DNA of 31,902 bases from a virus (lineage: Duplodnaviria; Heunggongvirae; Uroviricota; Caudoviricetes), in IMG/VR virus record IMGVR_UViG_2925939204_000002, one strand, 5' to 3'. Below, piece after piece: positions 1,012-24,542 of the stretch (position 1 is the stretch's first letter; every line of letters starts with the position of its first letter). Made by a program: the position numbers and the translations under genes. The notes beneath the pieces were generated by a model that saw nothing but the letters and a program-made list of their open reading frames with translations, ran no database searches and was not told the origin of the DNA.

Positions 1012-1104
1012 AAGACAGGGATGGTGAAGAAATCCAGGCAGTAACACAATGGAATAAAAGGATTTATTCTAATCTTCGTCTACATTTTGACTACACTTCG
1101 ACAG

Positions 1105-3039: not shown

Positions 3040-3106
3040 ATCAACCCCTTCATCATGATGGGGTACATCGTCGCCACGCGCGCGCGCATGAACAACGCCC
3101 CGTCAT

Positions 3107-3124
3107 TGTTGCAGGTTGCTGACA
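3107..3124. promoter_or_regulatory. Candidate Ogr-binding dyad (TGT-N12-ACA) of a late promoter between D and FI
   Basis: tgt tgcaggttgctg aca is an exact TGT-N12-ACA; centre about 3115, roughly 55 bp from the expected FI start site and symmetrically placed relative to D. Confidence 0.45.
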
Positions 3125-3196
3125 ACCCTTATCCATCGCATCGGCCCGCCATTGCCGCAATGATATTCGCAGTCATTAAACTGGCGAGGCAAATAC

Positions 3197-4390: not shown

Positions 4391-4402
4391 CCGGGGGCGC
4401 TT

Positions 4403-4918
4403 ATGGCACTGCCTAAGAAACTCAAATATTTCAATATGTTCTTTGACGGGGATAACTACTTCGGCATGGTGCCGGAAATCACCCCCGCCAAACTCACCAA
4501 AAAAACCGAAGACTACCAGGCGGGTGGTATGCCAGGTTCGGTTGCGGTGGATCTTGGCTTCGACGCTGGCGCCCTGGATATGGATATCACGCTTGGCGGT
4601 CTGGATGCCGGATTGCTGAAAAAATGGGGCGTTACCACTGCGGACGGGATGCAAACACGTTTTGCTGGCTCCTATCAGGACGACGCAACCGGCGACGCTG
4701 TACCGTGCGAAATCCAGACGCGTGGCCGCTTCACTGAACTGGATCCCGGTTCGGCAAAAGTCGGGGATGACACTTCGCATAAGTACACCCTGAAAAACAC
4801 CTATTACAAGCTGACCATCAACGGCGAAGAGATTATCGAAGTTGATGTGCTCAACATGATCTACAAAGTTGCCGGTGTGGATGTGCTGGAAAAACACCGC
4901 GCTAACATCGGCCTATAA
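4403..4918 (+). CDS. Tail tube protein (P2 gpFII family)
   Basis: 171-aa product MALPKKLKYFNMFFDGDNYFG, size and position match gpFII. Confidence 0.9.
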   Translation: MALPKKLKYFNMFFDGDNYFGMVPEITPAKLTKKTEDYQAGGMPGSVAVDLGFDAGALDMDITLGGLDAGLLKKWGVTTADGMQTRFAGSYQDDATGDAVPCEIQTRGRFTELDPGSAKVGDDTSHKYTLKNTYYKLTINGEEIIEVDVLNMIYKVAGVDVLEKHRANIGL

Positions 4919-4932
4919 GGAAACCCGGCACC

Positions 4933-5268
4933 ATGAGCAAAACCAAAGAAAACACCGTTATTCTTACCGCCCCTATTACGCGCGGTAAGACCAAAATCAC
5001 CGAAGTGGCGATCACTTCCATGCTTAAACAGGCTGGATCACTGCGCGGCTTAAAAGCCTATGACGTGCTGACTTCCAACTATGACGCGCTGGTTATTCTG
5101 CTGCCCCGCGTTACCGCTCCGGCACTAACCGCCGATGAGATTGCCCGTATGGATACCTGGGATTTTTGCCAGCTAGCCAACGCGGTGGTTGATTTTTTGC
5201 AACCCTCTTCGGATCTGACCGCGACGGATACGGGCAACGAATCATCCGATGCCCCTGCGAACGCATAG
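4933..5268 (+). CDS. Tail assembly chaperone gpE (in-frame product)
   Basis: 111-aa ORF directly upstream of the tape measure gene; contains a slippery heptamer. Confidence 0.75.
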   Translation: MSKTKENTVILTAPITRGKTKITEVAITSMLKQAGSLRGLKAYDVLTSNYDALVILLPRVTAPALTADEIARMDTWDFCQLANAVVDFLQPSSDLTATDTGNESSDAPANA

Positions 5269-5393
5269 AAGACCTGATGGCAGATATCGCCGTCATATTC
5301 CACTGGCGGCCGGTAGAGATGGACGCCATGACGGTACAGGAAATACTGTTATGGCGTGATCAGGCGGCTGCGCGCAGTGGTGGAGATCACTAA
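4933..5393 (+). CDS. Tail assembly chaperone gpE+E' made by programmed -1 frameshift
   Basis: The -1 frame after the slippery site stays open to TAA at 5391-5393, immediately before the T start; expected from the conserved E/E' (lambda G/GT-like) arrangement. Confidence 0.6.
5193..5199 (+). promoter_or_regulatory. Slippery heptamer TTTTTTG for the gpE/E' -1 ribosomal frameshift
   Basis: T TTT TTG in the E reading frame at 5193-5199; the -1 frame is open from here to 5393. Confidence 0.55.
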
Positions 5394-8321
5394 ATGGCAG
5401 ACCGCAATTTAAATATCAGGGTGGCATTCAGCGCCCTGAATAATATGTCCCGCCCTGTCAACGCGGCGCGCCAGAGTGCCGCCGCGTTGGCGTCTCAAAT
5501 CAACCAGACTAAAACCAGCATTAAAGGGCTTGAGCGTCAGGCAACCAGCTTTGACCGCCTCACCGCAGCCAATAAAAAAACCACCGAACAACTGGCCCAG
5601 GCGAAAGAACAGGCCCGGCAAATGGCGGCGGCTTATGGCCCGTTACGCCAGCGCAGCGCCGAACAAGTTGCCGCCCTCAATCAGCAACGTGCAGCCATTC
5701 GCCAGTTAACCCAGCAGCAGAAAGGCGAGCAGACGCAGCTTAACCAGTTGCGGGCCAGCTTCTACAGCGAAGGCATTGCGATCAGCAGCGCCAGCCGGGC
5801 GACGGAACAGATCAACCAGCGCACCGCGCAATACAACCGCCAGCTTGCTGAACAGCAACGACGGCTTGACGCTGTTAACCAGGCGCAGGCCCGTTACAGC
5901 CGCGCCAAAGAAACCGGCGAAAAGATGATGAGCGGGGGAATGAAAACCGCCGCAGTAGGGGCGGCAACACTCGTACCTGTCGCCGCTGCGGTGAAATCCT
6001 ACAGCAGCCTCGAAGACGCGATGAAGGGCGTAGCCAAACAGGTAAATGGCTTACGTGACGACAGCGGCAACCGCACCCCGCAGTATGAAGAAATGCAGCG
6101 GGCGATCATGGATGCCAGCGAAAAGCTGCCAATGGCTAACGGTGCTGTTGACTATGCCGCCCTGGTCGAAGGCGGCGCGCGTATGGGCGTCGCAAACAGC
6201 GATGATCCCTGGCAAAAGCAAAAAGCCGATCTGCTGTCTTTTGCCAGCATGGCGGCAAAAGCTTCGGTAGCCTTTGAACTGCCCGCCGATCAGCTTTCTG
6301 AAAGCCTGGGGAAAATTGCCGGGCTGTATAAAATCCCCACCCAGAATATTGAACAGTTAGGCGACGCCATAAACTACCTGGACGATAACGCGAAGTCGAA
6401 AGGCTCCGATATTATCGACGTACTCCAGCGCGTTGGTGGGCTTGCCAGCCAACTGGATTACAAGCAAGCCGCCGCGCTAGGTTCCACCTTTCTGACGCTC
6501 GGCACCCCTGCCGAAGTTGCCGCCAGCGCCACCAATGCAATGGTGCGCGAACTCTCAATCGCTACGGTTCAGGGCAAAAACTTTATGCAGGGTCTGGACG
6601 CCCTCGGCCTCAGCGCCGAAAAAGTTCAGAAGAGCATGTCAGTGGACGCGATGGGCACAATCATTTCAGTGCTGGAAGCGTCCAAAAAACTGGCCCCGGA
6701 TCAGCAGGTAGCCAACCTTACCCAGATTTTTGGCAAAGAGTTCGGCGATGATGCGCAGAAACTTGCCAACAACCTGCCCGAACTACGCCGCCAGATAGAA
6801 CTGACGCAGGGCGCAGCCGCTAAAGGTTCCATGAATAGGGAGTCTGATATCAATAAAGCTTCCCTTTCTGCTCAATGGCAACTGACAAAAACCGGCGCGG
6901 TTAACGCATTCAGTTCAGCAGGTGAAACCCTTCGCGATCCGCTGATGGATATCATGCTTACCGTCAGTAAGGTGGTTGGCAGCGTCCGCCGCTGGGTGGA
7001 GGCAAACCCAGCGCTGGTTGGTTCAATCATGAAAGTCACCGCAGCCATAGGCGCTTTGCTGGTTGTCATGGGTGGCCTGATGCTGTCCATCGGCGCAGTA
7101 CTTGGCCCAATGGCACTTGTTCGCCTCAGCTTCACCTCGCTGGCCGGGGAAGGAGGAATAGCGCGTCTGACTGGCGGAGTAATGCGCCTGGGTGGTGCGT
7201 TCCAGTGGCTTGCTGGCTCGCCTATGCAGGCATTGTTAAGCGCCGGTCGCATGGTATTCGGCCCGCTTATCACGCTACTGGCTGGCATTTCTGCGCCCGT
7301 CTGGGGGCTGATTGCTCTCTTTGCTGCGGTAGCAGTGGCCGTAATTAAATTCTGGCAACCGATTAAGGCATTTTTCAGCGGCTTCTTTACCGGTCTGATG
7401 GCTGGCCTTCAACCAATAACGCAGTCGTTTAACGCCGTATTCGCACCACTGGCCCCGATTTTTAACAGTATCGGCAACGCGATCAGCGGCGTCTGGGAAT
7501 GGTTTACCAAACTACTGGAGCCGATCCAGTTTTCCAGTGAAGCGCTGGCATCCTGCACCAGTGCAGGGGAAACCTTCGGTAAGGTGGTTGGGGCCACAAT
7601 CAGCGCGCTGACGCTTCCCATTCAGGCCGTAGCCAAAGGGCTGGGCTGGATTCTGGAAAAGCTGGGCGCCATTCCCGACGCAGCGAAAGCAGCGCAGCAG
7701 GTTGCGCAGCAAATGACGCCGGAAGCGGTAAACAATCTGGCAGACCGGGTTAACGCCTTTTCCGGTGACGTGCAGGCAGTCGCGAAGGAAAGCAAAAAAG
7801 CCGAAGAGAAAAAGAAAACCGATGAGCAGAAGAAACAGGACAACCTGATTAACTCGCTCAAAGGCCCGGCCAACATCGTGCCGAAGATGAGCAACAGCCT
7901 GGACAAGATCGCCACCAATACCACGGAGAAGAAAGACGGCCCCGGCGAAATTGTCTTCAAGAATAAGCAGCCCTATATCCCGATCCGTGGCGGATATTCG
8001 GAACCGCTTAAGCAGGCGCAGCGCCAGCTACCATCCCTTACCGATTGGGTGACGCAGCAGGCCGGATCGCTGATCGCTTCCGTTACGCCTTGGCAGGTTG
8101 AGAAGCCCGCCGCACGGATGCCTGTTTCGGCGTCTCCGTCTGCGGCTTCCGTCGCTGCGCTGATGCCTGCTCCGGGTGGCGATGTATATAACCTTAACTT
8201 CGACTTTAGCGGCCAGAAACTGGATGAAGAAACCATTATCAGGCGCGTGCGCGAAGAACTTGCGTTAGCGAAGCAACAGGCCGACCGGCGCAAGCGCTCC
8301 CAACTGACCGATCACGTCTAA
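5394..8321 (+). CDS. Tail tape measure protein (P2 gpT family)
   Basis: 975-aa product with coiled-coil N-terminal third, hydrophobic Gly/Ala-rich central segments and charged C-terminus; follows E/E'. Confidence 0.9.
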   Translation: MADRNLNIRVAFSALNNMSRPVNAARQSAAALASQINQTKTSIKGLERQATSFDRLTAANKKTTEQLAQAKEQARQMAAAYGPLRQRSAEQVAALNQQRAAIRQLTQQQKGEQTQLNQLRASFYSEGIAISSASRATEQINQRTAQYNRQLAEQQRRLDAVNQAQARYSRAKETGEKMMSGGMKTAAVGAATLVPVAAAVKSYSSLEDAMKGVAKQVNGLRDDSGNRTPQYEEMQRAIMDASEKLPMANGAVDYAALVEGGARMGVANSDDPWQKQKADLLSFASMAAKASVAFELPADQLSESLGKIAGLYKIPTQNIEQLGDAINYLDDNAKSKGSDIIDVLQRVGGLASQLDYKQAAALGSTFLTLGTPAEVAASATNAMVRELSIATVQGKNFMQGLDALGLSAEKVQKSMSVDAMGTIISVLEASKKLAPDQQVANLTQIFGKEFGDDAQKLANNLPELRRQIELTQGAAAKGSMNRESDINKASLSAQWQLTKTGAVNAFSSAGETLRDPLMDIMLTVSKVVGSVRRWVEANPALVGSIMKVTAAIGALLVVMGGLMLSIGAVLGPMALVRLSFTSLAGEGGIARLTGGVMRLGGAFQWLAGSPMQALLSAGRMVFGPLITLLAGISAPVWGLIALFAAVAVAVIKFWQPIKAFFSGFFTGLMAGLQPITQSFNAVFAPLAPIFNSIGNAISGVWEWFTKLLEPIQFSSEALASCTSAGETFGKVVGATISALTLPIQAVAKGLGWILEKLGAIPDAAKAAQQVAQQMTPEAVNNLADRVNAFSGDVQAVAKESKKAEEKKKTDEQKKQDNLINSLKGPANIVPKMSNSLDKIATNTTEKKDGPGEIVFKNKQPYIPIRGGYSEPLKQAQRQLPSLTDWVTQQAGSLIASVTPWQVEKPAARMPVSASPSAASVAALMPAPGGDVYNLNFDFSGQKLDEETIIRRVREELALAKQQADRRKRSQLTDHV

Positions 8322-8330
8322 GGCAATATC

Positions 8331-8780
8331 ATGATGATGATTCTGGGGATGTTCCCCTTTTCACTGCAAACCACACCTTACCAGAGTGCGAATAAAACCA
8401 ACTCCTGGCGGCACGTCAAAAACGATCGCGTGGGGAAATCCCCGCGCTATCAGTTCATCGGCGCAGATGAAGAACCGTTCGTACTCAGCGGCACGCTGTA
8501 CCCCGAAATAAGCGGCGGTGATGTGTCGCTTGTCATGCTGGAAACTATGGCTTTTTCCGGGCGCCCGTGGCCCCTGATAGAAGGCACGGGCAGGATCTAC
8601 GGCATGTATGTAATTGAGCAGATCACGCAAAACCGGACGGAGTTTTTTAAGGACGGGAAGGCAAAGAAAATTGATTTCACGCTCAACCTGAAACGGGTAA
8701 GCGAGGACATACGGGAAAAGCTGGCTGAAACCACTACCGACGATCTCTTCTCTCTGGTGAAAACCAACCTTTCGATATAA
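8331..8780 (+). CDS. Tail protein U (P2 gpU family)
   Basis: 149-aa product immediately after T; N-terminus MMMILGMFPF. Confidence 0.8.
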   Translation: MMMILGMFPFSLQTTPYQSANKTNSWRHVKNDRVGKSPRYQFIGADEEPFVLSGTLYPEISGGDVSLVMLETMAFSGRPWPLIEGTGRIYGMYVIEQITQNRTEFFKDGKAKKIDFTLNLKRVSEDIREKLAETTTDDLFSLVKTNLSI

Positions 8781-8784
8781 GAAA

Positions 8785-8811
8785 AGCGGGCCATTGCCCG
8801 CTTCGTCTTCC
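8785..8811 (+). terminator. Candidate terminator of the tail operon
   Basis: agcgggc-catt-gcccgct hairpin starting 5 nt after the U stop, followed by a U/C-rich tract. Confidence 0.45.
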
Positions 8812-8832
8812 GTAATACACAACCATAACTGA

Positions 8833-8889
8833 CCGTGCTACAGCACCGTTAAAAGTGACCGTACTCGATACACACGGCCAGCACGGTTA
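8833..8889. repeat. Copy A of a ~57-bp structured intergenic repeat
   Basis: 42 of 48 core positions identical to 15461-15508, plus cgtgct upstream; contains 12-bp palindrome gtgct-ac-agcac and conserved tcgatacacacggccagcacggtta; abuts the invertase stop. Confidence 0.5.
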
Positions 8890-9468
8890 TAACCGGCCAT
8901 GCGTGCCGGAATTCTTATCTCTGGTCGCTGGGAATTTTTTGTAAAGCGTAGATATCCCAACATCATAAATTATGGCAACCCTCCGGCGCGATTCCCCTGC
9001 CGCTATTAACCTACCCGCCTGCGCCCATTGTTCTGGTGTTAGTTTTGGACGTCTACCGCCGATCCTTCCCTGCGCGCGAGCGGCCACCAGTCCTGCACGC
9101 GTACGCTCGACAATCAATTCTCTCTCCATCTCTGCCAGTGCTCCCATAACATGAAAAAAGAAACGCCCCATTGGTGTTGAGGTATCAATACTGTCCGTCA
9201 GGCTGCGGAAGTTCACGGAACGTTGCTTTAGTTCCTCCACCAGAATGACCAAGTTCCGCATACTCCGCCCAAGACGATCCAGCTTCCAGACAACAAGCGT
9301 ATCTTCTGGAGAAAGGCGCTTTAGTAATTTTTTAAGCCCTGGCCTTTCCGCTGTTCTCCCGCTCATTTTATCTTCAAAAATTAGCTCACATCCTGACCGC
9401 TCAAGCGCATCACGTTGCAAAGCCGTGTTCTGGTCATTTGTTGATACGCGCACATATCCAATAAGCAT
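8887..9468 (-). CDS. Site-specific DNA invertase, Hin/Gin/Pin/Cin-family serine recombinase
   Basis: 193-aa product MLIGYVRVSTNDQNT...VVWKLDRLGRSMRNL...SPMGRFFFHVMGALAEMERELI, near-identical in motif content to Gin/Pin; catalytic Ser in the YVRVST context; C-terminal HTH. Confidence 0.9.
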   Translation of the reverse strand: MLIGYVRVSTNDQNTALQRDALERSGCELIFEDKMSGRTAERPGLKKLLKRLSPEDTLVVWKLDRLGRSMRNLVILVEELKQRSVNFRSLTDSIDTSTPMGRFFFHVMGALAEMERELIVERTRAGLVAARAQGRIGGRRPKLTPEQWAQAGRLIAAGESRRRVAIIYDVGISTLYKKFPATRDKNSGTHGRL

Positions 9469-9522
9469 GGTTTTTCATTCCTTTAAAACGATAAATCATG
9501 CCATTCGGCTAATAATTATGCA

Positions 9523-9548
9523 TTTTCAAAAACGTTCGTTTCGAACTG
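9523..9548. promoter_or_regulatory. Candidate invertase crossover site (hix/gix-like) immediately upstream of the invertase gene
   Basis: ttttcaaaaacg tt cgtttcgaactg: A-rich half-sites aaacg/cgttt around a 2-bp centre, resembling the GAAAACC-NN-GGTTTT core of hix/gix; positioned as gixR/hixR are relative to their recombinase genes. Confidence 0.3.
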
Positions 9549-9641
9549 GGGGGGGAGTGACGGGCTGTGAAGGGCGATGTTGCTCTGATGGAAAATTCCG
9601 GGTCTTGCTGATGCGTGTCGATACAGCAAAACCCGTATGGC

Positions 9642-9875
9642 TTACTCCTCTGGATAATGAGTAGGCGCATTATACTGACTGACGTACTCGTTAAGCTCCG
9701 GCGGGTATGTCACTTTTGCTGTATCTCGCTCTACGTTGAATGTATCCGCTCCCCAGATAACACACTCCCTCAAAAATGCCTCCACCTCTGGCGAGACTTC
9801 AACCGCATCATCAGGTCGCTCTTGTTCAGAAACATAAAAACCAACGGTCGTTGGGCTGAAATAGATATTCTCCAT
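9642..9875 (-). CDS. Tail fibre assembly (Tfa) chaperone-like protein, short form, probably truncated
   Basis: 77-aa product MENIYFSPTTVGFYVSEQERPDDAVEVSPEVEAFL resembles the conserved N-terminal domain of Tfa proteins, but the usual C-terminal domain is absent; lies between tail fibre H and the invertase. Confidence 0.5.
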   Translation of the reverse strand: MENIYFSPTTVGFYVSEQERPDDAVEVSPEVEAFLRECVIWGADTFNVERDTAKVTYPPELNEYVSQYNAPTHYPEE

Positions 9876-9877
9876 AT

Positions 9878-11134
9878 TTAGTATCCTATTGCTTCAAAAT
9901 GCAGTGTCGGTGTTTCGCCGAGATTGGGTGTCGTATACGCCACAGTGAATCGCGTTCTTGATACGTCAGTGCCAGAATCAGTATCGCGATGCGTTGCCAG
10001 TGATTTTCCGGCCATTGTTGCCTGGGTCGAATAGCTGTAACTCGCTAGTGTTGCCAGCGTTGCTATTTGTGCATTTGGGAATTGTCTGGGGAAATTAACC
10101 CTGTAGTAATGGGTGTAGTACGTCACCCCACCGAGCACCTGCGCGCTGAAGTTACCAACTGGTGTCAGTGTCACAGTGCCAGCCTGTCGAATCATACCAT
10201 TTGGGAGAATATCCCAGGCAGTTTGTCCGTTTCGCGACATACCAAATGCGGACATGTCCGGGAGTTGATTATTACCGGTTCCCACGTCCCTTTTTGCCGC
10301 TTCTCCCAATTGAAGGTTTTGTAGAAAAACAGAAACGTTTTCTATGTCTGAACCATTTGCCGATTTATCCATCTTTCCAGCGAGTGAATTTGTTACGGTG
10401 GTAGCAAAGTTAGGATCATTACCCAAAGCCGCAGCAAGTTCATTCAGCGTATCCAGCGCTTCAGGCGAAGAGCCAACCAAAGCAGCAATAGCAGCCTGAA
10501 CGAAAGCTGTATTTGCAATTTGAGTAGAACTATCTTTGCCTTCCGCCGTTGGCGCAGTCGGCCTGCCAGTAAGAGCGGGACTTTCTTTTGGTGCGTATTG
10601 TTTATGCGGATCAGCCGCAGCTACATGCGCTGCCATTTTCTGATCAACATAGCTTTTCACCTGGATGATCTGATCATCAACATACTGTCGGGTTGCCAGA
10701 ACTACCGAAGGGTCAATTTTCAGCGTTACGGCAGCGGTGCTGCTGACAATCAGGATCATGCGTACAACCTGTACGCGCCCGCTTCCCTCCTGTAACTGCG
10801 GCTTATACGTTTCCGCACAGTTGGCTACGGCAATCATATCGCCGTCTTTATCGAATAAACCGATTTCACGGATCCACCACCCGCCCTCGTCTTCAGGTAT
10901 CACCTGCTCGGCAATAATCTGGTTGGCGTTATTCGGGTCAATGCTCAGACTATTAAGCGGCTTGCGGCGCAGCTCATGAACCAGCGCCGTTTGTGCCGGG
11001 TTCGGCGTCGGCAACACGCCGTTACCATCGCCTACAGCCATCTGGGTGATTTCAACCTGCGCACCCAATGCCGTGGCATTTGCCAGTTTCGCCGCGCCCA
11101 CATTGGTTAGCACGGCATAATATTTAGTCGCCAC
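9878..11134 (-). CDS. Tail fibre protein (P2 gpH family), about 418 aa from GTG start
   Basis: N-terminal region ATKYYAVLTNVGAAKLANATALGAQVEITQMAVGDGNG...SGRVQVVRMILIVSS matches the conserved gpH N-terminal domain; GTG at 11134-11132 overlaps the gpI stop. Confidence 0.85.
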   Translation of the reverse strand: MATKYYAVLTNVGAAKLANATALGAQVEITQMAVGDGNGVLPTPNPAQTALVHELRRKPLNSLSIDPNNANQIIAEQVIPEDEGGWWIREIGLFDKDGDMIAVANCAETYKPQLQEGSGRVQVVRMILIVSSTAAVTLKIDPSVVLATRQYVDDQIIQVKSYVDQKMAAHVAAADPHKQYAPKESPALTGRPTAPTAEGKDSSTQIANTAFVQAAIAALVGSSPEALDTLNELAAALGNDPNFATTVTNSLAGKMDKSANGSDIENVSVFLQNLQLGEAAKRDVGTGNNQLPDMSAFGMSRNGQTAWDILPNGMIRQAGTVTLTPVGNFSAQVLGGVTYYTHYYRVNFPRQFPNAQIATLATLASYSYSTQATMAGKSLATHRDTDSGTDVSRTRFTVAYTTPNLGETPTLHFEAIGY

Positions 11135-11738
11135 TTGCGATCTCCACGGTGTCAATTAAATGGATTGCCGCCCCGGTGTAATCATCACCGCCCACGGCTA
11201 TGGTTTCAGGAAAATACGGGTACACGGTTAGCGTATCGCCGGAATAACTGCCCGCGCCGATATACAGATCGCCGGTTGTTTGCAGGTGAAGAGACATTCC
11301 CAGCATATGACGGCTGCACGGCTTCACATCGGCGATCAGGCGTTCAAGTTCCTGATAGGTTTCTTCACTAATGCCCTGGTCTTCCACGCCAATATCCAGC
11401 GTGAAGGTGCCCGGTGCGGTGTCGATGTTCCACCACTCGTTAACCCGGATGAAGAAGCCGAACGGCTCCACAACCCGGCGCATGGCGCCCGTTGTACCCT
11501 TGTACTTATGCAGGTAAAACGCATCGGCCACTGCCTTTCGTTTTGTGTTTATCGGCCAGGCCTCATCCCAGCGATCAACGGAGAAGGCCCACGCCAGATA
11601 GGGCAACAGATCAGCCCGACACGTCCACGGGTTCCACAACTGGCGCAGCGGCACGGGCACTTCACCCAACGACGCACAGACGCGCGCGGCGACGCGCTCC
11701 ATTCGGCTGGCGCTGGGTGGTAACAGGTCATTACTCAT
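11124..11738 (-). CDS. Baseplate/tail protein I (P2 gpI family)
   Basis: MSNDLLPPSASRMERVAARV N-terminus; ATG at 11738 overlaps the J stop (ATGAGTAA arrangement). Confidence 0.85.
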   Translation of the reverse strand: MSNDLLPPSASRMERVAARVCASLGEVPVPLRQLWNPWTCRADLLPYLAWAFSVDRWDEAWPINTKRKAVADAFYLHKYKGTTGAMRRVVEPFGFFIRVNEWWNIDTAPGTFTLDIGVEDQGISEETYQELERLIADVKPCSRHMLGMSLHLQTTGDLYIGAGSYSGDTLTVYPYFPETIAVGGDDYTGAAIHLIDTVEIASGD

Positions 11739-12642
11739 CGTAACCACCCACCGTTATGGTGTATTCGGTGCAGTGCGATGCCTGGTAGTCACTCAGCACA
11801 ATATCCGCAACAGGCCGCGCCAGTTCCACGCGCTGGACGCCTTCGACGTGCAGGGCGGCGTAGATAGCTGAAAGACGGATATCGCGCCCTAAGCGATTCT
11901 GCGCGGCAATATACGCCTGTAACTGCTGTTCCGATGCCTGCCGGACGGGTTCAGCTTCCGGCCCCGGATAGATGTAAAGCGTTGCATCAATCTGATACGG
12001 CACGATCTCCGCAGACTGCACCGTTACCCTGTCGGCCACCGGGCGCACTTCTTCATCGTTCAGGGCAGCAGCGACCACGGAAAGCAGATCATCGCTGGCC
12101 GTTCCGTCACCTTCGCGCGACAGCACCGAAATGGTGACGCAGGCAGGCGTAGGACTCACCGCCGAAATATCAGCTACGCGCCCGTCTGCTGAACGCCCCC
12201 AAAATTCATACGCCGCAGTTGGCCCGGCCACGCTCAGACCTTCAAAAGCCTGCTGGGTACGCGTGCGTAAATCTGGGTCTGACTCCATCACGGCTTCAAT
12301 TGGCGGTGTAACGCTGTCGTCTTCTTCCTGAATGGTCAGACGTTCAACGTTGAAATTGACCGCCAGATTATCCAGATCGCTATCCGTGGAATAAGCCAGC
12401 ATCACCGCGCGGGCTGCTTCATTCACCCGCTGGCGCAACAGCAATTCGCGATAGCAATTCTCTTCCAGCAGCATGGTGATCGGCTCCGATTCAAGCTCAA
12501 GCGTGCGGGCGATCTCTTCCTGCTCGTCTTCCGGGTACATCGCAATAAATGCCGCCTTGCGCTGCGCGAAAAGCGTTTCGAAGTCCAGCGGTTCAACCAC
12601 CACGGGCGGCGGTAGCTGCGATAAATCGATCGTGCCGCTCAT
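11731..12642 (-). CDS. Baseplate assembly protein J (P2 gpJ family)
   Basis: 303-aa product, size and position between W and I. Confidence 0.9.
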   Translation of the reverse strand: MSGTIDLSQLPPPVVVEPLDFETLFAQRKAAFIAMYPEDEQEEIARTLELESEPITMLLEENCYRELLLRQRVNEAARAVMLAYSTDSDLDNLAVNFNVERLTIQEEDDSVTPPIEAVMESDPDLRTRTQQAFEGLSVAGPTAAYEFWGRSADGRVADISAVSPTPACVTISVLSREGDGTASDDLLSVVAAALNDEEVRPVADRVTVQSAEIVPYQIDATLYIYPGPEAEPVRQASEQQLQAYIAAQNRLGRDIRLSAIYAALHVEGVQRVELARPVADIVLSDYQASHCTEYTITVGGYDE

Positions 12643-13001
12643 GCCTGGCCCCTCAATGTAATATCAGCGTTAAATGGCGTCTGATTGTCGGTGCGATTGG
12701 CCTGGATAGTGGCAACCAGCCGACCGGCACCCGGCGCGCTCAGGGTGATACTGGTCAGAGAGATCCGCGGTTCCCATAAATACAGGGCGCTGTAGATGGC
12801 AGACATAACGCGCAGCTTCGTTATGGCGTTATCGACCGGCTGATCTATCAGGTTGAAAAGCTGCGAACCGTAAGCGCGGCGCATTACACGGGAACCGATC
12901 GGCGTTAACAGAATATCGCCGATAGACTGCGCTATATGCTCGTTGTCGGTGATGGCATGGCCTGAACTGGCATTCATGCCGCTGTAACGGACTGTACTCA
13001 T
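12639..13001 (-). CDS. Baseplate protein W (gp25-like)
   Basis: 120-aa product between V and J, translationally coupled. Confidence 0.85.
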   Translation of the reverse strand: MSTVRYSGMNASSGHAITDNEHIAQSIGDILLTPIGSRVMRRAYGSQLFNLIDQPVDNAITKLRVMSAIYSALYLWEPRISLTSITLSAPGAGRLVATIQANRTDNQTPFNADITLRGQA

Positions 13002-13627
13002 ACCGGGCCACCTGTATTACTACCACCGGACTGGACGCCGCTATGTTTGTGAGAATGGACAACGACACCATTAGACGAAAGCGATCCGCCTGAATGGGTA
13101 ATATTGCCCTTCATTTCCCCGCCCTTTTGCACTTCCAGCGTGGCGGTGATCAGCTTGTTGGTGCAGACCACTTCCGGCGTGTCCAGGGTAACGCGCGTAT
13201 CTGCCTTGACCGTTACCACCGGCACGGTGGCGGTAATGGATTCCGACGCGGTGACGCTTGCCGTTTTTACCCCGCTGACAACCAGCGCGCTGGCCTCCGG
13301 GTCATATGAAATACGGGCGCCATCCGGGTGCAGGATCACGCAGGTGGTAGCGCCAGCATCTGGCGGCGGTGCGTCTTTGCTGTAAAGGCTTCCGGCAATG
13401 AATGCCGTCTCCAGCTCACCGCAGGGGCACAAAATATAAACCTGTTCGCCCACTGTCGGCGCCCACCACGTCACGGCTTCACCGGCGCGCGGCACTGCCC
13501 AGCGGATCCAGTCGGTTTTGTTCTCGCCGGTTTCGACGCGTGCAAGATACTTTTCCGTATCCACTTCCAGCACGGTGCCAATGCGGGCGAGATTGCAGAT
13601 AAGGCGATAGAGTTCGTTTAAATTCAT
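12998..13627 (-). CDS. Baseplate spike/assembly protein V (P2 gpV family)
   Basis: 209-aa product MNLNELYRLICNLARIGTV; first gene after the S-V intergenic region. Confidence 0.85.
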   Translation of the reverse strand: MNLNELYRLICNLARIGTVLEVDTEKYLARVETGENKTDWIRWAVPRAGEAVTWWAPTVGEQVYILCPCGELETAFIAGSLYSKDAPPPDAGATTCVILHPDGARISYDPEASALVVSGVKTASVTASESITATVPVVTVKADTRVTLDTPEVVCTNKLITATLEVQKGGEMKGNITHSGGSLSSNGVVVHSHKHSGVQSGGSNTGGPV

Positions 13628-13765
13628 AGTGCTGACTGTTTCCCGTGGTGCCGGTTACGCTGTCCGGCGTCGTTTCCACCCGGTAGCAGGCTTTACGACC
13701 GTTTCGGCTTTTGGGTTATGCAGTCAGTATCAGGAGTCGCGCGCGCGCAAACAACGCGGCGCCCT

Positions 13766-13783
13766 TGTGGCGGGTTGGTGACA
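13766..13783. promoter_or_regulatory. Candidate Ogr-binding dyad of the V-operon late promoter
   Basis: tgt ggcgggttggtg aca is an exact TGT-N12-ACA located between the S stop (13785) and the V start (13627). Confidence 0.45.
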
Positions 13784-13784
13784 A

Positions 13785-14429
13785 TCAAATCTCTTGCATG
13801 AAGGCGACAACAGTATCGACCAGCCAGTCTAAATCCCCCTCGGTCATGCCCAGGAGTTCACGCACCGGGTAGCGTGCACGGGCACCCGGCACCACGTTAT
13901 CGACTTCACCGTACTGGTGAACGCTGGCAATTTCGGCGGTATGCCCCTGAAAGCCAACCACTGCCATGCCGCCCGTACCGTAAGCCTTAAGAAAGCGTGC
14001 GGTGCGCAGCTTGCGGAACATCGGATCCTTTCTGGTGCGGTTTTGCTTTGACTGGTTGAGATTGATTTCAATATAGCGCTGGATATCGCGCTTATAGAAC
14101 GTGCGCAGGGCACCGCGATCAACGTCATAGCCGGTGATTGCGCGGTGCTCACCCCTGCCCGTGGTTCGCCAGTTGCGTAACTCCCTGGCCTCATCATTCC
14201 ATACGAATTTTATCCCGCCCTGGGTGCGCAGAATTTTGCGGCGGCGGGCCTGATAGCTTTCACCGCTGGGGTTCTTCTGGCTGGCGATACGCTTTTGCTG
14301 GCGCTTACGCAGCCCGATCGCAACGTCGCGCGTCAGCTTGCGACGGTGTCCGGGCGAAAGCTGCGCGGCAACGCTGGCTAACCAGTCGTCTAACTGCTGG
14401 AAGAGGGGATCGGTTTGTTGTCCTGCCAT
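13785..14429 (-). CDS. Virion morphogenesis / tail completion protein (gpS-like)
   Basis: 214-aa basic product between R and V, overlapping R by 40 nt; position equivalent to P2 gpS. Confidence 0.7.
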   Translation of the reverse strand: MAGQQTDPLFQQLDDWLASVAAQLSPGHRRKLTRDVAIGLRKRQQKRIASQKNPSGESYQARRRKILRTQGGIKFVWNDEARELRNWRTTGRGEHRAITGYDVDRGALRTFYKRDIQRYIEINLNQSKQNRTRKDPMFRKLRTARFLKAYGTGGMAVVGFQGHTAEIASVHQYGEVDNVVPGARARYPVRELLGMTEGDLDWLVDTVVAFMQEI

Positions 14430-14884
14430 GTTTCGCCGCTGACCTCATCAACAAATACCAGTGACCACGCGCCAATTTCCGGCCCCGGTGCAGGGTCAGC
14501 ACGGTGACGGGTGACGATCTCGCCATCTTCACGGGTGACGATCACCGCTTCATCAGCCTGAATCTGGATCAGTACGTCCATCGTGCTGTTACTCAGAATA
14601 TCGGCTTCGAATGTTATGCCGTTCTGCTGCCTGTCCGGGTTAAACAACAGATCAGGCTGATATAAGCGCGCCCATGCCAGCACCGGCACGCTGATAGTAT
14701 CCAGAGATTCAGGGTAATCCATCACCAGCACTTCCAGCGTATAGCGATACTCAAACGCAGCAGCACGCTGGCCGGTGCTGACCATACGACCTTTTCGCAG
14801 ATAAACCGCCAGATTATCGGGATTTTCGCGCAGCCAGGGCACATGCTGGCTTATCATCTGGCGCAGTAAATCGGGTTTAAGCAT
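14390..14884 (-). CDS. Tail completion protein R (P2 gpR family)
   Basis: MLKPDLLRQMISQHVPWLRENPDNLAVYL ... VPVLAWARLYQPDL resembles P2 gpR; TAATG coupling to the upstream spanin gene. Confidence 0.8.
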   Translation of the reverse strand: MLKPDLLRQMISQHVPWLRENPDNLAVYLRKGRMVSTGQRAAAFEYRYTLEVLVMDYPESLDTISVPVLAWARLYQPDLLFNPDRQQNGITFEADILSNSTMDVLIQIQADEAVIVTREDGEIVTRHRADPAPGPEIGAWSLVFVDEVSGETWQDNKPIPSSSS

Positions 14885-15414
14885 TACTTATTCCCCCCGG
14901 ACTTAACCGCATCATATGCAGCCTCACAGGCTAATCCTCTGGCTCTTGCTTCATCAGCTTCTCTTGCCAGTTCCCCCGCTCGCTCGTCAGCCCGCTTAAA
15001 CAGGTCGGCAAGCAATGCGGCACCGCTGGCTTTTGCCTCGCTTCTGCCGGGAGTTCCGGCACCGCAGGCACGTTCACGGTCTGCCAGTCTTCTGGCGAGT
15101 TCGTCGGCTTTGGCGTGCAGCCCACGAGAAACAGCACTGGCACGATCGGCAGCAGCCTGCACGCCAGCAAGCTGCTGACTGGTTTGTTTTCTGATCGCAT
15201 CAATTTCACCTTGTCGGCGTTGTTCTTCTGTCCTGGCCTCAGCCTGCCTTTGCGCCAGCGCGGTGGCGTCGCGTGCATCACGTTGCGCCCACTTTTCACG
15301 CCAGTGCTGATCTGCATCACCGTAACCGGCGCTGTAACGCCAGTGGCTAAAACCCCATACAGCAGCAGCGGCCAGCACAAGACAAACGATCACTTTCCAG
15401 CGTGACAACCCCAT
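14884..15414 (-). CDS. Rz-like inner-membrane spanin (LysB-like)
   Basis: 176-aa product with N-terminal TM segment (WKVIVCLVLAAAAVWGF) followed by Ala/Arg/Glu-rich coiled coil; contains an embedded lipoprotein ORF in another frame. Confidence 0.75.
   Translation of the reverse strand: MGLSRWKVIVCLVLAAAAVWGFSHWRYSAGYGDADQHWREKWAQRDARDATALAQRQAEARTEEQRRQGEIDAIRKQTSQQLAGVQAAADRASAVSRGLHAKADELARRLADRERACGAGTPGRSEAKASGAALLADLFKRADERAGELAREADEARARGLACEAAYDAVKSGGNK
14931..15200 (-). CDS. Rz1-like outer-membrane lipoprotein spanin (LysC-like), embedded in the Rz-like gene
   Basis: Internal ATG at 15200 gives MRSENKPVSSLLACRLLPIVPVLFLVGC... with lipobox LVGC and Pro-rich mature region; fully nested in the +1 frame of the i-spanin gene. 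Confidence 0.6.
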   Translation of the reverse strand: MRSENKPVSSLLACRLLPIVPVLFLVGCTPKPTNSPEDWQTVNVPAVPELPAEARQKPAVPHCLPTCLSGLTSERGNWQEKLMKQEPED

Positions 15415-15451
15415 ATCTAAACCTCTCGCCAGCTCGCACTGTCATTACCGT

Positions 15452-15509
15452 ACGTGCTGGAGCACTGTCAAAAATGACCGCGCTCGATACGCACGGCCAG
15501 CACGGTTAG
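15452..15509. repeat. Copy B of the ~57-bp structured intergenic repeat
   Basis: Matches 8833-8889 at about 85 percent; contains palindrome gtgct-gg-agcac; lies between the endolysin stop and the spanin start. Confidence 0.5.
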
Positions 15510-15515
15510 ACATGA

Positions 15516-15995
15516 TCACGACTCAGAAACGGAGCGCGTACCGGATAGCTGCGGCAATGGTTGAACATCGACAGGAATATCTTTCGGCCAGCGATATCCA
15601 GATACCCGCGATGTAGAAAACGCACGGATATTCACCGCATCACTCTGATTTCCACCCAGTACCATCAAATCGCCATTTGCCTGCTGACCAACAACAAAGC
15701 CAACATGACCGCCGCCGTCACGGCTGAATACCACCACACAACCATATGCAGGTTTATCCAGCTTCACCCCCCAATTAAGATAAGATGCGGCTGATTCAAA
15801 GCGGCTTGATGTGATACCTGAACGTTCCAGCACTCCCCCAACGTAAGCCGCACACCACGGCGTTTCGTCGTCCTTAATACCGCCTCGTTTTATATCCTTC
15901 CAGAACTGTAAAATTAGCGGGTTATGCTCTGGCCCTTTAATTTCCTTTTCACCAATATATTTACGACCTTCAACAATCCATGATGGTTCTTTCAT
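15516..15995 (-). CDS. Putative endolysin, Cys-His peptidase-like (CHAP / NlpC-P60-like), not the P2 gpK lysozyme type
   Basis: 159-aa product with WCAAYV and GGHVGFVV motifs suggesting a Cys/His catalytic pair; located between holin and spanins. Confidence 0.6.
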   Translation of the reverse strand: MKEPSWIVEGRKYIGEKEIKGPEHNPLILQFWKDIKRGGIKDDETPWCAAYVGGVLERSGITSSRFESAASYLNWGVKLDKPAYGCVVVFSRDGGGHVGFVVGQQANGDLMVLGGNQSDAVNIRAFSTSRVSGYRWPKDIPVDVQPLPQLSGTRSVSES

Positions 15996-20103: not shown

Positions 20104-20121
20104 TGTCGGACTCAGGCGACA
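20104..20121. promoter_or_regulatory. Candidate Ogr-binding dyad in the divergent O/P late promoter region
   Basis: tgt cggactcaggcg aca is an exact TGT-N12-ACA; spacing fits the O promoter; the P promoter site was not identified. Confidence 0.4.
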
Positions 20122-22930: not shown

Positions 22931-23000
22931 CGCCAGCCCGGACACACCCACCACCACCGCGCAAAGGCCTACACGGCCATAACTGACCACACCGCACGTA

Positions 23001-23038
23001 AGCCCCTCAGCAGCCTGCTGGCAGGGGCTTTTCTTTTT
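23001..23038 (+). terminator. Rho-independent terminator after Q
   Basis: agcccct ... aggggct stem followed by ttttctttttcc. Confidence 0.55.
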
Positions 23039-23140: not shown

Positions 23141-23159
23141 CTCATTCCCCCGCCTCGCC
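23141..23159. other. Candidate cos site (cohesive-end sequence)
   Basis: ctcattcccccgcctcgcc is the reverse complement of GGCGAGGCGGGGGAATGAG, closely resembling the P2 cohesive end as I recall it (GGCGAGGCGGGGAAAGCAC); located just beyond Q as in P2. Confidence 0.5.
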
Positions 23160-24526: not shown

Positions 24527-24542
24527 TTAAAACATACCCATA

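What the first reader, a model, noticed from the sequence alone, without database searches (positions are those of the whole stretch)
8833..15509. About 57-bp structured repeat occurring directly after the invertase gene and directly after the endolysin gene
Two intergenic copies (8833-8889 and 15452-15509) are about 85 percent identical (42 of 48 core positions plus flanking cgtgct). Each has a perfect 12-bp palindrome gtgct-NN-agcac with a different central dinucleotide, then aaaa(g/a)tgaccg..ctcgatac.cacggccagcacggtta, with outer inverted arms ccgtgct / agcacgg. Both copies start right at the stop codon of a gene that is non-canonical for P2 (the invertase, and a Cys-His type endolysin replacing the gpK lysozyme). 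That fits a linker or junction sequence used in module exchange, a cis-acting RNA element at the 3' end of these transcripts, or a protein-binding or recombination site. A weaker partial match (acacggccataactgacc at 22971-22988) combines two pieces of copy A in permuted order but is within chance expectation.
Basis: seen in the sequence. Interest (0 to 1): 0.55.

Follow-up and report, generated by a model that had tools for sequence, protein, structure and literature searches.

The report
Conserved hairpin repeat between phage genes
A roughly 90-base hairpin-forming sequence occurs twice in this P2-like prophage and at the same gene junctions in related phages; it most likely shapes the ends or the stability of phage messenger RNAs, and it is a real, undescribed but modest feature.

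Summary
The repeat is real. It is the longest repeat in the window (66 nt, 82% identical). A covariance model finds exactly two copies, at 8805-8896 and 15424-15515, both on the minus strand, the sense of the flanking genes.

It belongs to a family confined to one lineage of P2-like (Peduoviridae) phages of Enterobacterales. In E. coli it occurs in 34 of 5426 genomes, at a median of two places. It has no Rfam family, no annotation and no literature hit.

The family occupies three fixed junctions:
- after the tail-fibre-assembly or invertase gene;
- between the endolysin and the DUF2514 spanin;
- upstream of a DNA methyltransferase.

Each element has a head (GTGCTGGCC..ATCGAG) and two or three quasi-palindromic units of about 25 nt (AGCACnGTCAyTTTTAACnGTGCT). 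It diverges about four times less than the adjacent spacer. It folds much better in mRNA sense, where 95% of structure cells pair against 77% on the other strand. In copy B it forms a perfect 9-bp hairpin followed by U5.

Best reading (about 45%): a cis-acting RNA stem-loop module that acts as a partial terminator, a 3'-end stabiliser or a cistron insulator. Its position at swapped endolysin cassettes follows from its location; it is not shown to be its function. There is no link to the invertase. Interest is moderate to low.

The parts
8805..8896 (-). Copy A of the element: full covariance-model match. It lies in the 3' UTR of the V-W-J-I-H-invertase late operon.
   Evidence: cmsearch gives 99.9 bits, E = 2.5e-24. 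Direct-repeat family D1. MFE -36.2 kcal/mol, z = -4.9 on the minus strand, against -18.4 kcal/mol, z = -1.6 on the plus strand.
15424..15515 (-). Copy B of the element. It is intercistronic, between the CHAP endolysin (15516-15995) and the DUF2514 spanin (14884-15414), inside the P_O late operon.
   Evidence: cmsearch gives 93.5 bits, E = 1.1e-22. MFE -37 kcal/mol, z = -3.0 on the minus strand, against -26.5 kcal/mol, z = -1.3 on the plus strand. Gene identities come from Pfam and RefSeq annotation.
15475..15499 (-). Copy B head hairpin UGGCCGUGC-GUAUCGA-GCGCGGUCA, followed by UUUUUGAC (15467-15474); it looks like an intrinsic terminator.
   Evidence: The terminator scan flags it: 9 pairs, 6 of them G-C, loop of 7. 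The 9-bp stem is perfect in all 14 unique type-B sequences, at -10 to -15.3 kcal/mol.
8864..8884 (-). Copy A head GTGCTGGCC-GTGTG-TATCGAG, homologous to the copy B hairpin. The stem contains G-U pairs and only 4 U follow it.
   Evidence: The pattern matches with 0 mismatches. It is not flagged as a terminator. Across type A the hairpin is degenerate, mean -4.7 kcal/mol.
8842..8864 (-). Copy A unit 1, GTACGGTCACTTTTAACGGTGCT: a quasi-palindromic unit with a U-rich centre.
   Evidence: The unit pattern matches with 1 mismatch, against 0 hits expected in shuffles.
15461..15483 (-). Copy B unit 1, GCGCGGTCATTTTTGACAGTGCT.
   Evidence: The unit pattern matches with 2 mismatches.
8816..8840 (-). Copy A unit 2 (UAGCACGGUCAGUUAUGGUUGUGUA in RNA sense), a tandem copy of unit 1 with a 26-nt period. 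It forms hairpin H3.
   Evidence: Read from the sequence and alignment A2. H3 is paired in 91.6% of cells.
15435..15459 (-). Copy B unit 2 (CAGCACGUACGGUAAUGACAGUGCG in RNA sense).
   Evidence: Read from the sequence and alignment A2.
8836..8847 (.). The 12-bp palindrome GTGCT-AC-AGCAC, which is the junction of units 1 and 2 in copy A.
   Evidence: Read from the sequence.
15455..15466 (.). The 12-bp palindrome GTGCT-GG-AGCAC, which is the junction of units 1 and 2 in copy B.
   Evidence: Read from the sequence. This palindrome is lost in type C copies, which carry a 4-nt deletion.
8783..8804 (.). Bidirectional intrinsic terminator between gene U and copy A. It ends the plus-strand tail operon and the minus-strand tail-fibre operon.
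   Evidence: The terminator scan flags it on the minus strand. On the plus strand an A-run precedes the hairpin and TTC follows it.
8893..8909 (.). Conserved flank hairpin CCGGCCATGCGTGCCGG next to copy A. It is also present in relatives where it is non-coding; here it lies inside the last 12 codons of the invertase ORF.
   Evidence: Divergence is 0.057. The Pfam HTH_7 domain of the invertase ends at residue 181 of 193.
15412..15427 (-). Shine-Dalgarno sequence GAGAGG (15422-15427) and ATG (15412-15414) of DUF2514, directly 3' of copy B. The homologous stretch of type C copies supplies GAGGG for the methyltransferase gene.

Best explanation
The two copies belong to a phage-lineage-specific family of composite intergenic repeats. 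Each has a head (GTGCTGGCC-N6-ATCGAG) and two or three quasi-palindromic units of about 25 nt (AGCACnG-UCAyUUUUAAC-nGUGCU).

The element is transcribed as part of polycistronic phage mRNAs, in the sense of the gene that ends just upstream. I propose that it acts as RNA, folding into stable stem-loops that punctuate the transcript.

Copy B: a 9-bp G+C-rich hairpin followed by U5 would act as a partial intrinsic terminator or attenuator, or as a barrier to 3' exonucleases. This would set endolysin expression apart from the downstream spanin and tail-completion genes. The 3' end of the element carries the ribosome-binding site of the next cistron.

Copy A: the same module sits in the 3' UTR of the tail-fibre operon, just before a strong terminator, where the terminator-like hairpin is redundant and has decayed.

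Shown: the repeat, its family, its contexts, purifying selection, and the strand-specific folding potential. Inferred: that the RNA is the active form, and what it does.
For: 1. Family and contexts. There are 65 IMG/VR stretches (two of them chance matches), plus Salmonella, Citrobacter, Kosakonia, Mixta, Erwinia, Izhakiella, Enterobacter and Klebsiella prophages. All copies sit at three junctions.

2. Orientation. At the two junctions inside operons (B and C) the element is in the sense of the flanking genes. Between the convergent U and tfa genes it is in tfa sense in type A and in U sense in the A' lineage, directly after the U stop.

3. Strand asymmetry. With the structure 'S1 + H3', 95.0% of cells pair, 0 of 500 shuffles reach this, and slid controls give 17-53%. 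The same pairs on the opposite strand give 76.7%. MFE is lower in mRNA sense in 49 of 50 sequences, mean -28.0 against -20.6 kcal/mol. z-scores are -4.9 and -3.0 in mRNA sense, against -1.6 and -1.3.

4. Type B hairpin. It is perfect in 14 of 14 unique sequences. Its three variable positions change G-C to G-U or U-G to U-A. The terminator scan flags it.

5. The A' lineage. In L185 the 116-nt gap between convergent U and tfa holds only the element array and no canonical terminator. It folds to -51 kcal/mol, z = -6.4.

6. Purifying selection. Divergence of the element is 0.069 against 0.319 for the adjacent spacer (type A), and 0.048 against 0.087 for third codon positions of DUF2514 (type B).

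7. No promoter. The TGT-N12-ACA Ogr sites lie only at the three expected late promoters, and no sigma-70-like site is found.

8. Precedent. The P2 record annotates a putative transcription attenuator in the lysis part of the O operon.
Against: - No transcript data exist.
- The consensus RNAalifold energy across all three types is weak (-7.8 kcal/mol). Only one pair shows a true double change (C-G to U-A), probably from a single event, and it is broken in type C.
- The head hairpin is degenerate in types A and C (means -4.7 and -5.3 kcal/mol), yet their sequences stay conserved. Primary sequence therefore matters too.
- Each type prefers a different extended fold, as expected for nested palindromes.
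- G+U-rich strands fold better in general.
- Natural deletion variants (L104, L119, L046) show that the element or parts of it can be lost.
- Phages with more distant DUF2514 proteins do without it.
Confidence: 0.45

Rival explanations
1. It is a DNA-level site. The alternating half-sites ACnGTGCT / AGCACnGT (five per element, at spacings of 26 and 38 bp) would bind a phage or host protein, or would act as a preferred recombination 'linker' that promotes exchange of neighbouring cassettes (endolysin, tail-fibre assembly or invertase genes, cargo next to the methyltransferase).
For: - The 12-bp palindromes are perfect, and the array of inverted half-sites is regular.
- Primary sequence is conserved even where the RNA hairpin is degenerate.
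- Variable genes abut the same end of the element in type B, and homology resumes at its edge in every pairwise comparison.
- Deletions have occurred between its internal direct repeats.
- The element has flipped orientation between the A and A' lineages.
Against: - About 20% of the structure cells are G-U pairs, which become A-C mismatches in a DNA cruciform or on the other strand.
- The 12-bp palindrome is lost in type C.
- Orientation relative to transcription is the same in both operon-internal contexts (B and C).
- The breakpoint at the element's edge is trivially where the variable gene ends.
- The left breakpoint, at the end of the holin gene, carries no copy.
- No candidate binding protein co-varies with the element, and the invertase is absent from most loci.
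Confidence: 0.2
2. It is a selfish or neutral REP/MITE-like repeat. A palindromic unit duplicated and spread to a few intergenic sites by illegitimate or homologous recombination, and it persists without any function for the phage.
For: - The tandem and inverted reiteration of quasi-palindromic units resembles REP clusters (BIMEs).
- It is dispensable in natural deletion variants and absent from P2 and from more distant relatives.
- It sits in intergenic spots where insertions are tolerated.
Against: - There are at most two copies per phage genome and none elsewhere in host chromosomes (34 of 5426 E. coli genomes, median 2 places). Species-representative genomes show 1-2 copies each in a few Enterobacterales.
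- The same three orthologous positions are kept across genera.
- It diverges 4-5 times less than the adjacent spacer and less than synonymous-like sites.
- No terminal inverted repeats or target-site duplications were seen.
Confidence: 0.15
3. It is a micro-ORF on the plus strand, antisense to the flanking genes. ATG ACC GCG CTC GAT ACG CAC GGC CAG CAC GGT TAG (15474-15509) would encode MTALDTHGQHG. The copy A version starts with GTG at 8855 and, because its stop is mutated to TAT, runs on to 8944.
For: - The common polymorphisms fall on third codon positions: Thr ACN shows three alleles twice, and His CAY shows only transitions.
- The diverged L028 copy keeps MTVLDAYGQHCQK.
- The Klebsiella copy carries an in-frame 9-nt insertion.
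Against: - In samples collected through flanking proteins, so not biased by my search pattern, distinct alleles are about 8 synonymous against 12 non-synonymous, close to neutral.
- The start codon is ACG in several copies and ATT in one.
- There is no Shine-Dalgarno sequence and no promoter-like site on that strand.
- The frame is broken by a 1-nt indel in the A' lineage, although the nucleotides stay conserved.
- The stop is lost in the window's own copy A.
Confidence: 0.07
4. It is a chance similarity, or a recent local duplication private to this prophage.
For: None beyond the fact that there are only two copies in the window.
Against: - The unit pattern gave 0 hits in 100 shuffles.
- Covariance-model E-values are 1e-22 to 1e-24.
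- Both copies are present at the same two sites in SEN4/SEN5 and in dozens of other phage contigs, and each copy is closer to its orthologues than to its paralogue.
Confidence: 0.01

Closest known systems
REP / BIME elements of enterobacterial chromosomes
   Same: Both are imperfect palindromic units of about 25-35 nt that occur singly or in tandem and inverted clusters. Both sit in transcribed intergenic and 3'-UTR positions of operons, sometimes within a few nt of a stop codon. REPs are known (from general knowledge) to stabilise upstream mRNA and modulate expression.
   Different: This element is unrelated in sequence, has no conserved GTAG head, and has no associated RAYT transposase. There are one or two copies per phage and none elsewhere in the host chromosome. 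It has an asymmetric 'head' and a U-rich loop of fixed polarity.
Intrinsic (Rho-independent) terminators and operon-internal attenuators, such as the putative attenuator annotated in the P2 O operon (NC_001895, 8399-8417)
   Same: Copy B has a 9-bp G+C-rich stem and a 7-nt loop followed by U5. Like the P2 attenuator, it lies in the lysis part of the O operon. Other copies sit at operon ends.
   Different: It has no sequence similarity to P2: the covariance model finds nothing there. The U-tract is short. About 50 further conserved nt (units 1 and 2) follow the hairpin. In types A and C the hairpin is weak.
RNase III processing sites of phage T7 early mRNA (R1-R5), and lambda sib
   Same: Both are mutually homologous, structured intercistronic or 3'-terminal elements of about 50-90 nt in phage polycistronic mRNA. 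The extended fold of type B gives about 25 stacked base pairs with small internal loops.
   Different: The extended helix is not kept in register between types A, B and C (74.5% paired). Cleavage cannot be tested here.
'Boundary' or linker sequences at module junctions of mosaic lambdoid phages
   Same: This is a conserved non-coding stretch at the edge of swapped cassettes. Three unrelated endolysin families precede it, and homology resumes at its edge.
   Different: The same sequence is paralogously present at three unrelated junctions. It is internally structured and under purifying selection, which a mere homology arm does not need.
Integron attC sites
   Same: Both are imperfect palindromes of about 60-90 nt placed right after the stop codon of a variable gene in a fixed orientation. 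The element's start, TTTTAAC or TCTAAC, resembles the inverse core site RYYYAAC.
   Different: The 3' core site GTTRRRY is not conserved (GTTATGG in A, GGTAATG in B). There are no cassette arrays. The element goes with the conserved downstream backbone, not with the variable gene.

Membership tests
REP / BIME | High copy number dispersed in intergenic regions of the host chromosome | tested here: not met
   It occurs in 34 of 5426 complete E. coli genomes, at a median of 2 places and at most 4 per genome. The species-representative scan gives 1-2 copies each in a few Enterobacterales.
REP / BIME | Conserved GTAG tetranucleotide 5' of the palindrome (the RAYT recognition site) | tested here: not met
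   GTAG is present in copy A (GCTGTAGCAC), but copy B has CCAG and many type A copies have GCAG.
REP / BIME | An associated RAYT (tnpA_REP) gene | not tested
   The part of the prophage annotated in RefSeq lists no transposase. No dedicated search was run.
Intrinsic terminator | A G+C-rich stem-loop immediately followed by a U-tract (at least 5 U in 8 nt) | tested here: met
   Copy B meets it: 9 pairs, 6 of them G-C, loop of 7, then UUUUUGAC. This holds in all 14 unique type B sequences. Copy A does not meet it: only 4 U follow, the stem contains G-U pairs, and it is not flagged.
Intrinsic terminator | Transcripts actually end there | not testable with these tools
   This needs Term-seq or 3' RACE on an induced lysogen.
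Ogr/Delta-dependent P2 late promoter | A TGT-N12-ACA dyad about 55 bp upstream of the transcription start | tested here: not met
   The window has 7 such sites. The three at expected late promoters are 3107-3124, 13766-13783 and 20104-20121; none lies in or next to the element.
Any Rfam family | A match to a curated covariance model at or above its gathering score | tested here: not met
   There are 0 matches at gathering threshold in the window. In E-value mode the best hits are E = 0.7-10 and far below gathering score.
Integron attC | Inverse core RYYYAAC and core GTTRRRY at the two ends, with the cassette linked to the site | tested here: not met
   The 5' end (TTTTAAC or TCTAAC) only partly fits, and the 3' end is not conserved. 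The element stays with the downstream backbone while the upstream gene varies.
Hin/Gin/Cin invertase crossover site | A 26-bp site with inverted 12-bp half-sites, present as an inverted pair flanking an invertible segment next to the invertase | tested here: not met
   The two copies are direct repeats 6.6 kb apart. Only 10 of about 85 copies have an invertase upstream. I recalled the hix and gix consensus sequences from memory and saw no resemblance.
RNase III site (T7 type) | About 20 bp or more of coaxial double-stranded RNA, conserved in register | tested here: inconclusive
   Types A and B each fold into a long irregular hairpin. The long helix is only 74.5% paired across the family, and the two types use different registers. 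Cleavage is not testable here.

The most novel reading that the evidence does not exclude
The element could be a portable cis-regulatory RNA module whose invariant single-stranded motifs (loop GUAUCGA and UCAUUUUUAAC) are read by a dedicated phage or host factor. That factor would time lysis and tail-gene expression, for example through factor-dependent attenuation between endolysin and spanin. Alternatively, the plus-strand 11-codon ORF could be a real microprotein. Either way, an undescribed regulator would be shared by three operons of a whole phage lineage.
Probability: 0.1. Interest if true: 0.6.

Novelty: new variant of a known kind. Interest (0 to 1): 0.35.

Why it matters
P2-like prophages are among the commonest in Enterobacterales, and their late operons are textbook examples of simple activator-driven transcription. 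A conserved, structured intergenic module shared by the lysis, tail-fibre and early operons would add a post-transcriptional layer to that picture: partial termination, processing or mRNA stabilisation.

It would also explain how unrelated endolysins can be swapped in without disturbing the downstream genes, because the element uncouples the cistrons and brings its own ribosome-binding site.

In practice it is an unannotated feature that gene callers run ORFs into. Here it supplies the last 12 codons and the stop codon of the invertase. The covariance model built here could be used to annotate it.

If it is only a decaying terminator plus palindromic filler, the finding is ordinary.

Tried and rejected
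- **Late promoter.** I looked for an Ogr-type dyad and for sigma-70 hexamers. The Ogr sites lie only at the three expected promoters, and no sigma-70-like site is found. Rejected.
- **Long 20-bp hairpin P1 of copy A as the conserved structure.** It is broken in many type A sequences and uses a different register in type B; only 74.5% of cells pair. Rejected as a family feature.
- **Hairpins H2 + H3 alone.** 90.6% of cells pair, but this does not exceed the shuffles (499 of 500 reach it).
- **Micro-ORF.** It looked attractive at first, but much of the signal came from my own search pattern, which forced invariance at the other positions. Unbiased samples and a frame-breaking indel weaken it.
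- **Host REP, ERIC or other chromosomal repeat.** Rejected on copy number.
- **Known RNA families.** None matched.
- **P2 itself.** No homologue was found.
- **Invertase recombination site, attC, IHF, CRP, LexA, NtrC, sigma-54, boxA, CRISPR-repeat mimic, tRNA-loop mimic.** I compared the element by eye with consensus sequences recalled from memory. None fitted, and none was formally tested.
- **Literature.** Searches for the sequence itself and for a P2 attenuator paper found nothing.
- **Other attempts.** BLAST of the more distant loci L206 and L185 against annotated phages gave no useful annotation. No repeat copy lies at the left breakpoint of the endolysin swap.

Full report
**Observation**

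They align without gaps over 66 nt at 82% identity (8824-8889 against 15443-15508). This is by far the longest repeat in the 31.9-kb window; the other families are at most 34 nt at about 70-77% identity. The 12-bp palindromes GTGCT-NN-AGCAC, the AAAA(G/A)TGACCG block and the CTCGATAC.CACGGCCAGCACGGTTA block are all present.

A unit pattern allowing three mismatches hits only these two places, against none in 100 shuffles. A covariance model built later from 50 homologues scores 99.9 and 93.5 bits at 8805-8896 and 15424-15515, both on the minus strand. The next hit scores 14 bits.

**Genomic setting**

The window is a P2-like prophage integrated next to fieF in E. coli. It is 100% identical to strains AR_0118 and AR_0128 over the 75-nt copy A query, and the window is about 95% identical over 82% of its first 25 kb to Salmonella phages SEN4/SEN5, genus Senquatrovirus. 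All genes flanking the repeat lie on the minus strand.

- Copy A lies between the stop codon of a serine invertase (8887-9468; Resolvase + HTH_7) and the bidirectional terminator (8783-8804) that follows tail gene U (8331-8780, plus strand). It is therefore in the 3' UTR of the V-W-J-I-H-invertase operon.
- Copy B lies between a CHAP-domain endolysin (15516-15995) and the DUF2514 spanin gene (14884-15414).
- Ogr-type activator sites (TGT-N12-ACA) occur at the three places expected for late promoters: 3107-3124, 13766-13783 and 20104-20121. None lies near the repeat, so copy B is internal to the P_O operon.

**Distribution**

BLAST finds both copies at the same two junctions in SEN4/SEN5. It finds one copy in Enterobacter phage phiT5282H, a degenerate one in a Klebsiella prophage, and one in Salmonella phages SI7/SW3/SW5 at a third junction.

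A pattern scan of IMG/VR returned 65 stretches, two of them chance matches. They are mostly 30-33-kb P2-like contigs, often with two copies 6-8 kb apart.

A scan of one genome per species returned true copies only in Salmonella, Citrobacter, Kosakonia, Mixta, Erwinia and Izhakiella, with one or two copies each. The remaining hits are chance matches in G+C-rich genomes.

In E. coli, 34 of 5426 complete genomes carry it, at a median of two places. It is therefore not a chromosomal repeat family such as REP or ERIC. It is a feature of one lineage of Peduoviridae. No record annotates it, no Rfam model matches it, P2 itself lacks it, and no paper in the library holds its sequence.

**Contexts**

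ORF calling around 85 copies and clustering of the neighbouring proteins gave three contexts.

- Type A follows a tail-fibre-assembly gene (35 copies) or an invertase (10 copies) and precedes the U terminator.
- Type B follows an endolysin and precedes DUF2514. The endolysin is a phage lysozyme in 13 copies, a peptidase M15 in 10 and a CHAP protein in 4.
- Type C follows a 68-aa ORF or other cargo and precedes a D12-class DNA methyltransferase.

The association with 'non-canonical' genes seen in this window does not generalise. The invertase is a minority neighbour.

I also sampled loci through the flanking proteins, so independently of the element's sequence.

- *Via DUF2514.* The element is present upstream of DUF2514 only where that protein is at least 84% identical to the window's. 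In more distant relatives the endolysin and DUF2514 genes abut or overlap and there is no element.
- *Natural deletions.* Deletion variants exist. Each arose between internal direct repeats of the element (L104, L119, L046).
- *Via U: the A' lineage.* In a sister lineage with U about 78-80% identical, the element lies directly after the U stop, in U sense. That is inverted relative to the window, with no canonical terminator present.
- *L185 in detail.* The 116-nt gap between convergent U and the tail-fibre-assembly gene holds only the element array and nothing that scans as a terminator. It folds into a long hairpin of -51 kcal/mol, z = -6.4.
- *More distant phages.* Where U is 60-71% identical, a single unit-like palindrome (ACACAG-N10-CTGTACT) still follows the U stop, before a terminator.

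**Anatomy**

An alignment of 50 unique copies (A2) shows these parts, read in mRNA sense:

- a half unit (UCAyUUUUAAC.GUGCU);
- a head (GGCC-N6-AUCGAG);
- unit 1 (AG.AC.GUCAyUUUUrAC.GUGCU);
- a 2-nt junction that creates the 12-bp palindrome;
- unit 2 (AGCAC.GUCAGUUAUGGC.GUGy);
- in types B and C, the Shine-Dalgarno sequence of the next gene.

Units 1 and 2 are tandem copies with a 26-nt period, and each is itself quasi-palindromic. Many alternative pairings are therefore possible, and type C has lost the 12-bp palindrome through a 4-nt deletion.

**Selection**

Among type A loci collected through U, the element diverges by 0.069 per site. The spacer between the terminator and the element diverges by 0.319, and third codon positions of U by 0.083. 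Among type B loci the element diverges by 0.048, against 0.087 for third positions and 0.044 for first and second positions of DUF2514. The element is under constraint.

**RNA or DNA?**

Several observations favour RNA in mRNA sense.

- Copy A folds to -36.2 kcal/mol (z = -4.9) on the minus strand against -18.4 (z = -1.6) on the plus strand. Copy B folds to -37.0 (z = -3.0) against -26.5 (z = -1.3).
- Across the family, MFE is lower in mRNA sense in 49 of 50 sequences.
- The RNAalifold structure is a three-part hairpin closed by ACCGU/ACGGU, with loop GUAUCGA. Together with the unit 2 hairpin it is paired in 95.0% of cells. No shuffle of 500 reaches this, and slid controls give 17-53%. The same pairs on the opposite strand give 76.7%, because about a fifth of the cells are G-U.
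- In type B the head forms a perfect 9-bp hairpin in all 14 unique sequences (-10 to -15 kcal/mol), followed by UUUUUGAC. Its three variable positions change only between G-C and G-U or between U-G and U-A.

Other observations count against a simple RNA model.

- The family-wide consensus energy is weak (-7.8 kcal/mol).
- The only double covariation (C-G to U-A) is probably one event, and it fails in type C.
- The head hairpin is degenerate in types A and C although the sequence is conserved.
- The long 20-bp helix of copy A is not kept in register in other types.
- The structure was derived on this strand, which biases the strand comparison.

**Mechanism proposed**

The best-supported reading is a cis-acting RNA punctuation module. 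It provides a stable stem-loop, or a set of them, at the 3' end of a cistron.

- In type B it looks like a partial intrinsic terminator or attenuator, or a barrier to 3' exonucleases, placed between the endolysin and the spanin, R and S genes.
- At operon ends (types A, A' and C) it would help form or protect the 3' end. In type A the strong terminator right behind it would make the head hairpin redundant, which fits its decay there.
- Its 3' end carries the ribosome-binding site of the next gene. The module thus uncouples neighbouring cistrons that overlap in phages lacking it.

P2 has an annotated putative attenuator in the lysis part of the same operon. That is a positional precedent without sequence similarity. 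I give this reading about 45%. None of the RNA-level steps is shown experimentally.

**Rivals**

It is supported by the regular array of inverted half-sites and by the conservation of primary sequence. Homology between phages with different endolysins always resumes at the element's 5' edge, while the left breakpoint lies at the end of the holin gene. That edge, however, is simply where the variable gene stops. No copy sits at the left breakpoint, and the G-U dependence and fixed polarity argue against a pure DNA role.
- *A selfish or neutral REP/MITE-like repeat, about 15%.* This fits the modular palindromic build and the element's dispensability. It does not fit the low copy number, the orthologous positions or the purifying selection.
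- *A plus-strand micro-ORF, MT(V/A)LDTHGQH(G/S), about 7%.* It initially looked good because the common polymorphisms fall on third codon positions. Part of that was ascertainment by my own search pattern. Unbiased samples give about 8 synonymous against 12 non-synonymous alleles. Start codons are sometimes ACG. The frame is broken by a 1-nt indel in the A' lineage while the nucleotides persist.
- *Chance or a private duplication.* This is excluded.

**Comparison with known systems and verdict**

The element works most like REP/BIME elements, operon-internal attenuators, or T7-type processing sites. It is not a member of REP (copy number and GTAG both tested, not met). It is not an Ogr-dependent promoter, an attC site, an invertase site or any Rfam family. 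It resembles the 'boundary sequences' of mosaic lambdoid phages in position only.

It is an undescribed, lineage-specific variant of a familiar kind of feature. Interest is moderate to low (0.35). It would rise if a dedicated factor, a regulated attenuation step or a translated micro-ORF were demonstrated.

Noticed in passing
window 15474-15509 (+) and 8855-8944 (+): A plus-strand micro-ORF lies inside the element: ATG..TAG encoding MTALDTHGQHG in copy B. In copy A it starts with GTG, the stop is mutated to TAT, and the frame runs on for 30 codons, stop included, antisense to the invertase. Third-codon-position polymorphism looked suggestive but did not hold up in unbiased samples.
   Followed up: partly
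window 1921-8780: Relative to the P2 gene order (G, FI, FII, E, T, U, D, ogr), the FI-FII-E-T-U block (3197-8780, +) is inverted here. D (1921-3039, -) and ogr (1630-1872, -) stay in the other orientation. Copy A sits at the U-side junction. The FI/D side (3040-3196) holds a single palindromic Ogr site, 3107-3124, that could serve both directions.
   Followed up: partly
window 8887-9468 (-) and 9509-9875: The invertase ORF carries about 12 extra C-terminal codons and takes its stop codon from the flank hairpin and the first UAA of the element; the Pfam HTH_7 domain ends at residue 181 of 193. Upstream lies only a 77-aa ORF (9642-9875) where relatives have a 205-aa tail-fibre-assembly gene. I looked for no crossover sites or invertible segment.
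   Followed up: no
window 22971-22993 (+): TACACGGCCATAACTGACCACAC matches unit 2 at 18 of 23 positions. It lies in the 3' UTR of the portal gene, just before a terminator (about 23001-23036), so in an analogous position. The covariance model does not support it (6.7 bits, E = 3.4). It may be a decayed remnant or chance.
   Followed up: partly
loci L178-L201 (about 1650-1770) and L204-L234 (just after the U stop): In sister lineages the element follows gene U in U sense, preceded by an inverted partner (L184: GGCCAACACT / AGTGTTGGCC, a perfect 10-bp inverted repeat). In much more distant P2-like phages a single unit-like palindrome, ACACAG-N10-CTGTACT(CGAT or GCAG), still follows the U stop before a terminator. 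The unit may be far older than the composite element.
   Followed up: partly
loci L104, L119 (type B) and L046 (type A): Natural deletion variants have lost either the head plus unit 1, or unit 2. Each deletion lies exactly between internal direct repeats (TCATTTTT..., GACAGTGC..., TGACnGTGCT...). This shows slippage or recombination within the element, and that parts of it are dispensable.
   Followed up: partly
window 23141-23159: ctcattcccccgcctcgcc is the reverse complement of GGCGAGGCGGGGGAATGAG. It closely resembles the P2 cohesive-end sequence as I recall it, and is probably the cos site. It lies between the portal gene and the cargo ORFs.
   Followed up: no
window 23414-24982 (+): Two plus-strand ORFs (370 aa and 142 aa) lie between cos and the replication gene A (24577-26946, -). 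This is the position of the P2 tin/old cargo hotspot. They might be a defence or other accessory module; I did not examine them.
   Followed up: no
window 904-1026: This stretch, next to fieF, is 100% identical to the end of an 'Escherichia phage P2' prophage record (KC618326, 31078-31200). It probably holds the att junction shared with P2-type integration at this site.
   Followed up: no
L238 (phage P2) 2400-2418: The putative attenuator annotated in the P2 O operon (GCTGGCAC-GCT-GTGCCAGC, followed by CAGGTAAAAATGATTAAACACTGTCAGG) shares short words with the element (AAAAATGA, CACTGTCA) in a different order. This is probably coincidence inside coding sequence.
   Followed up: no
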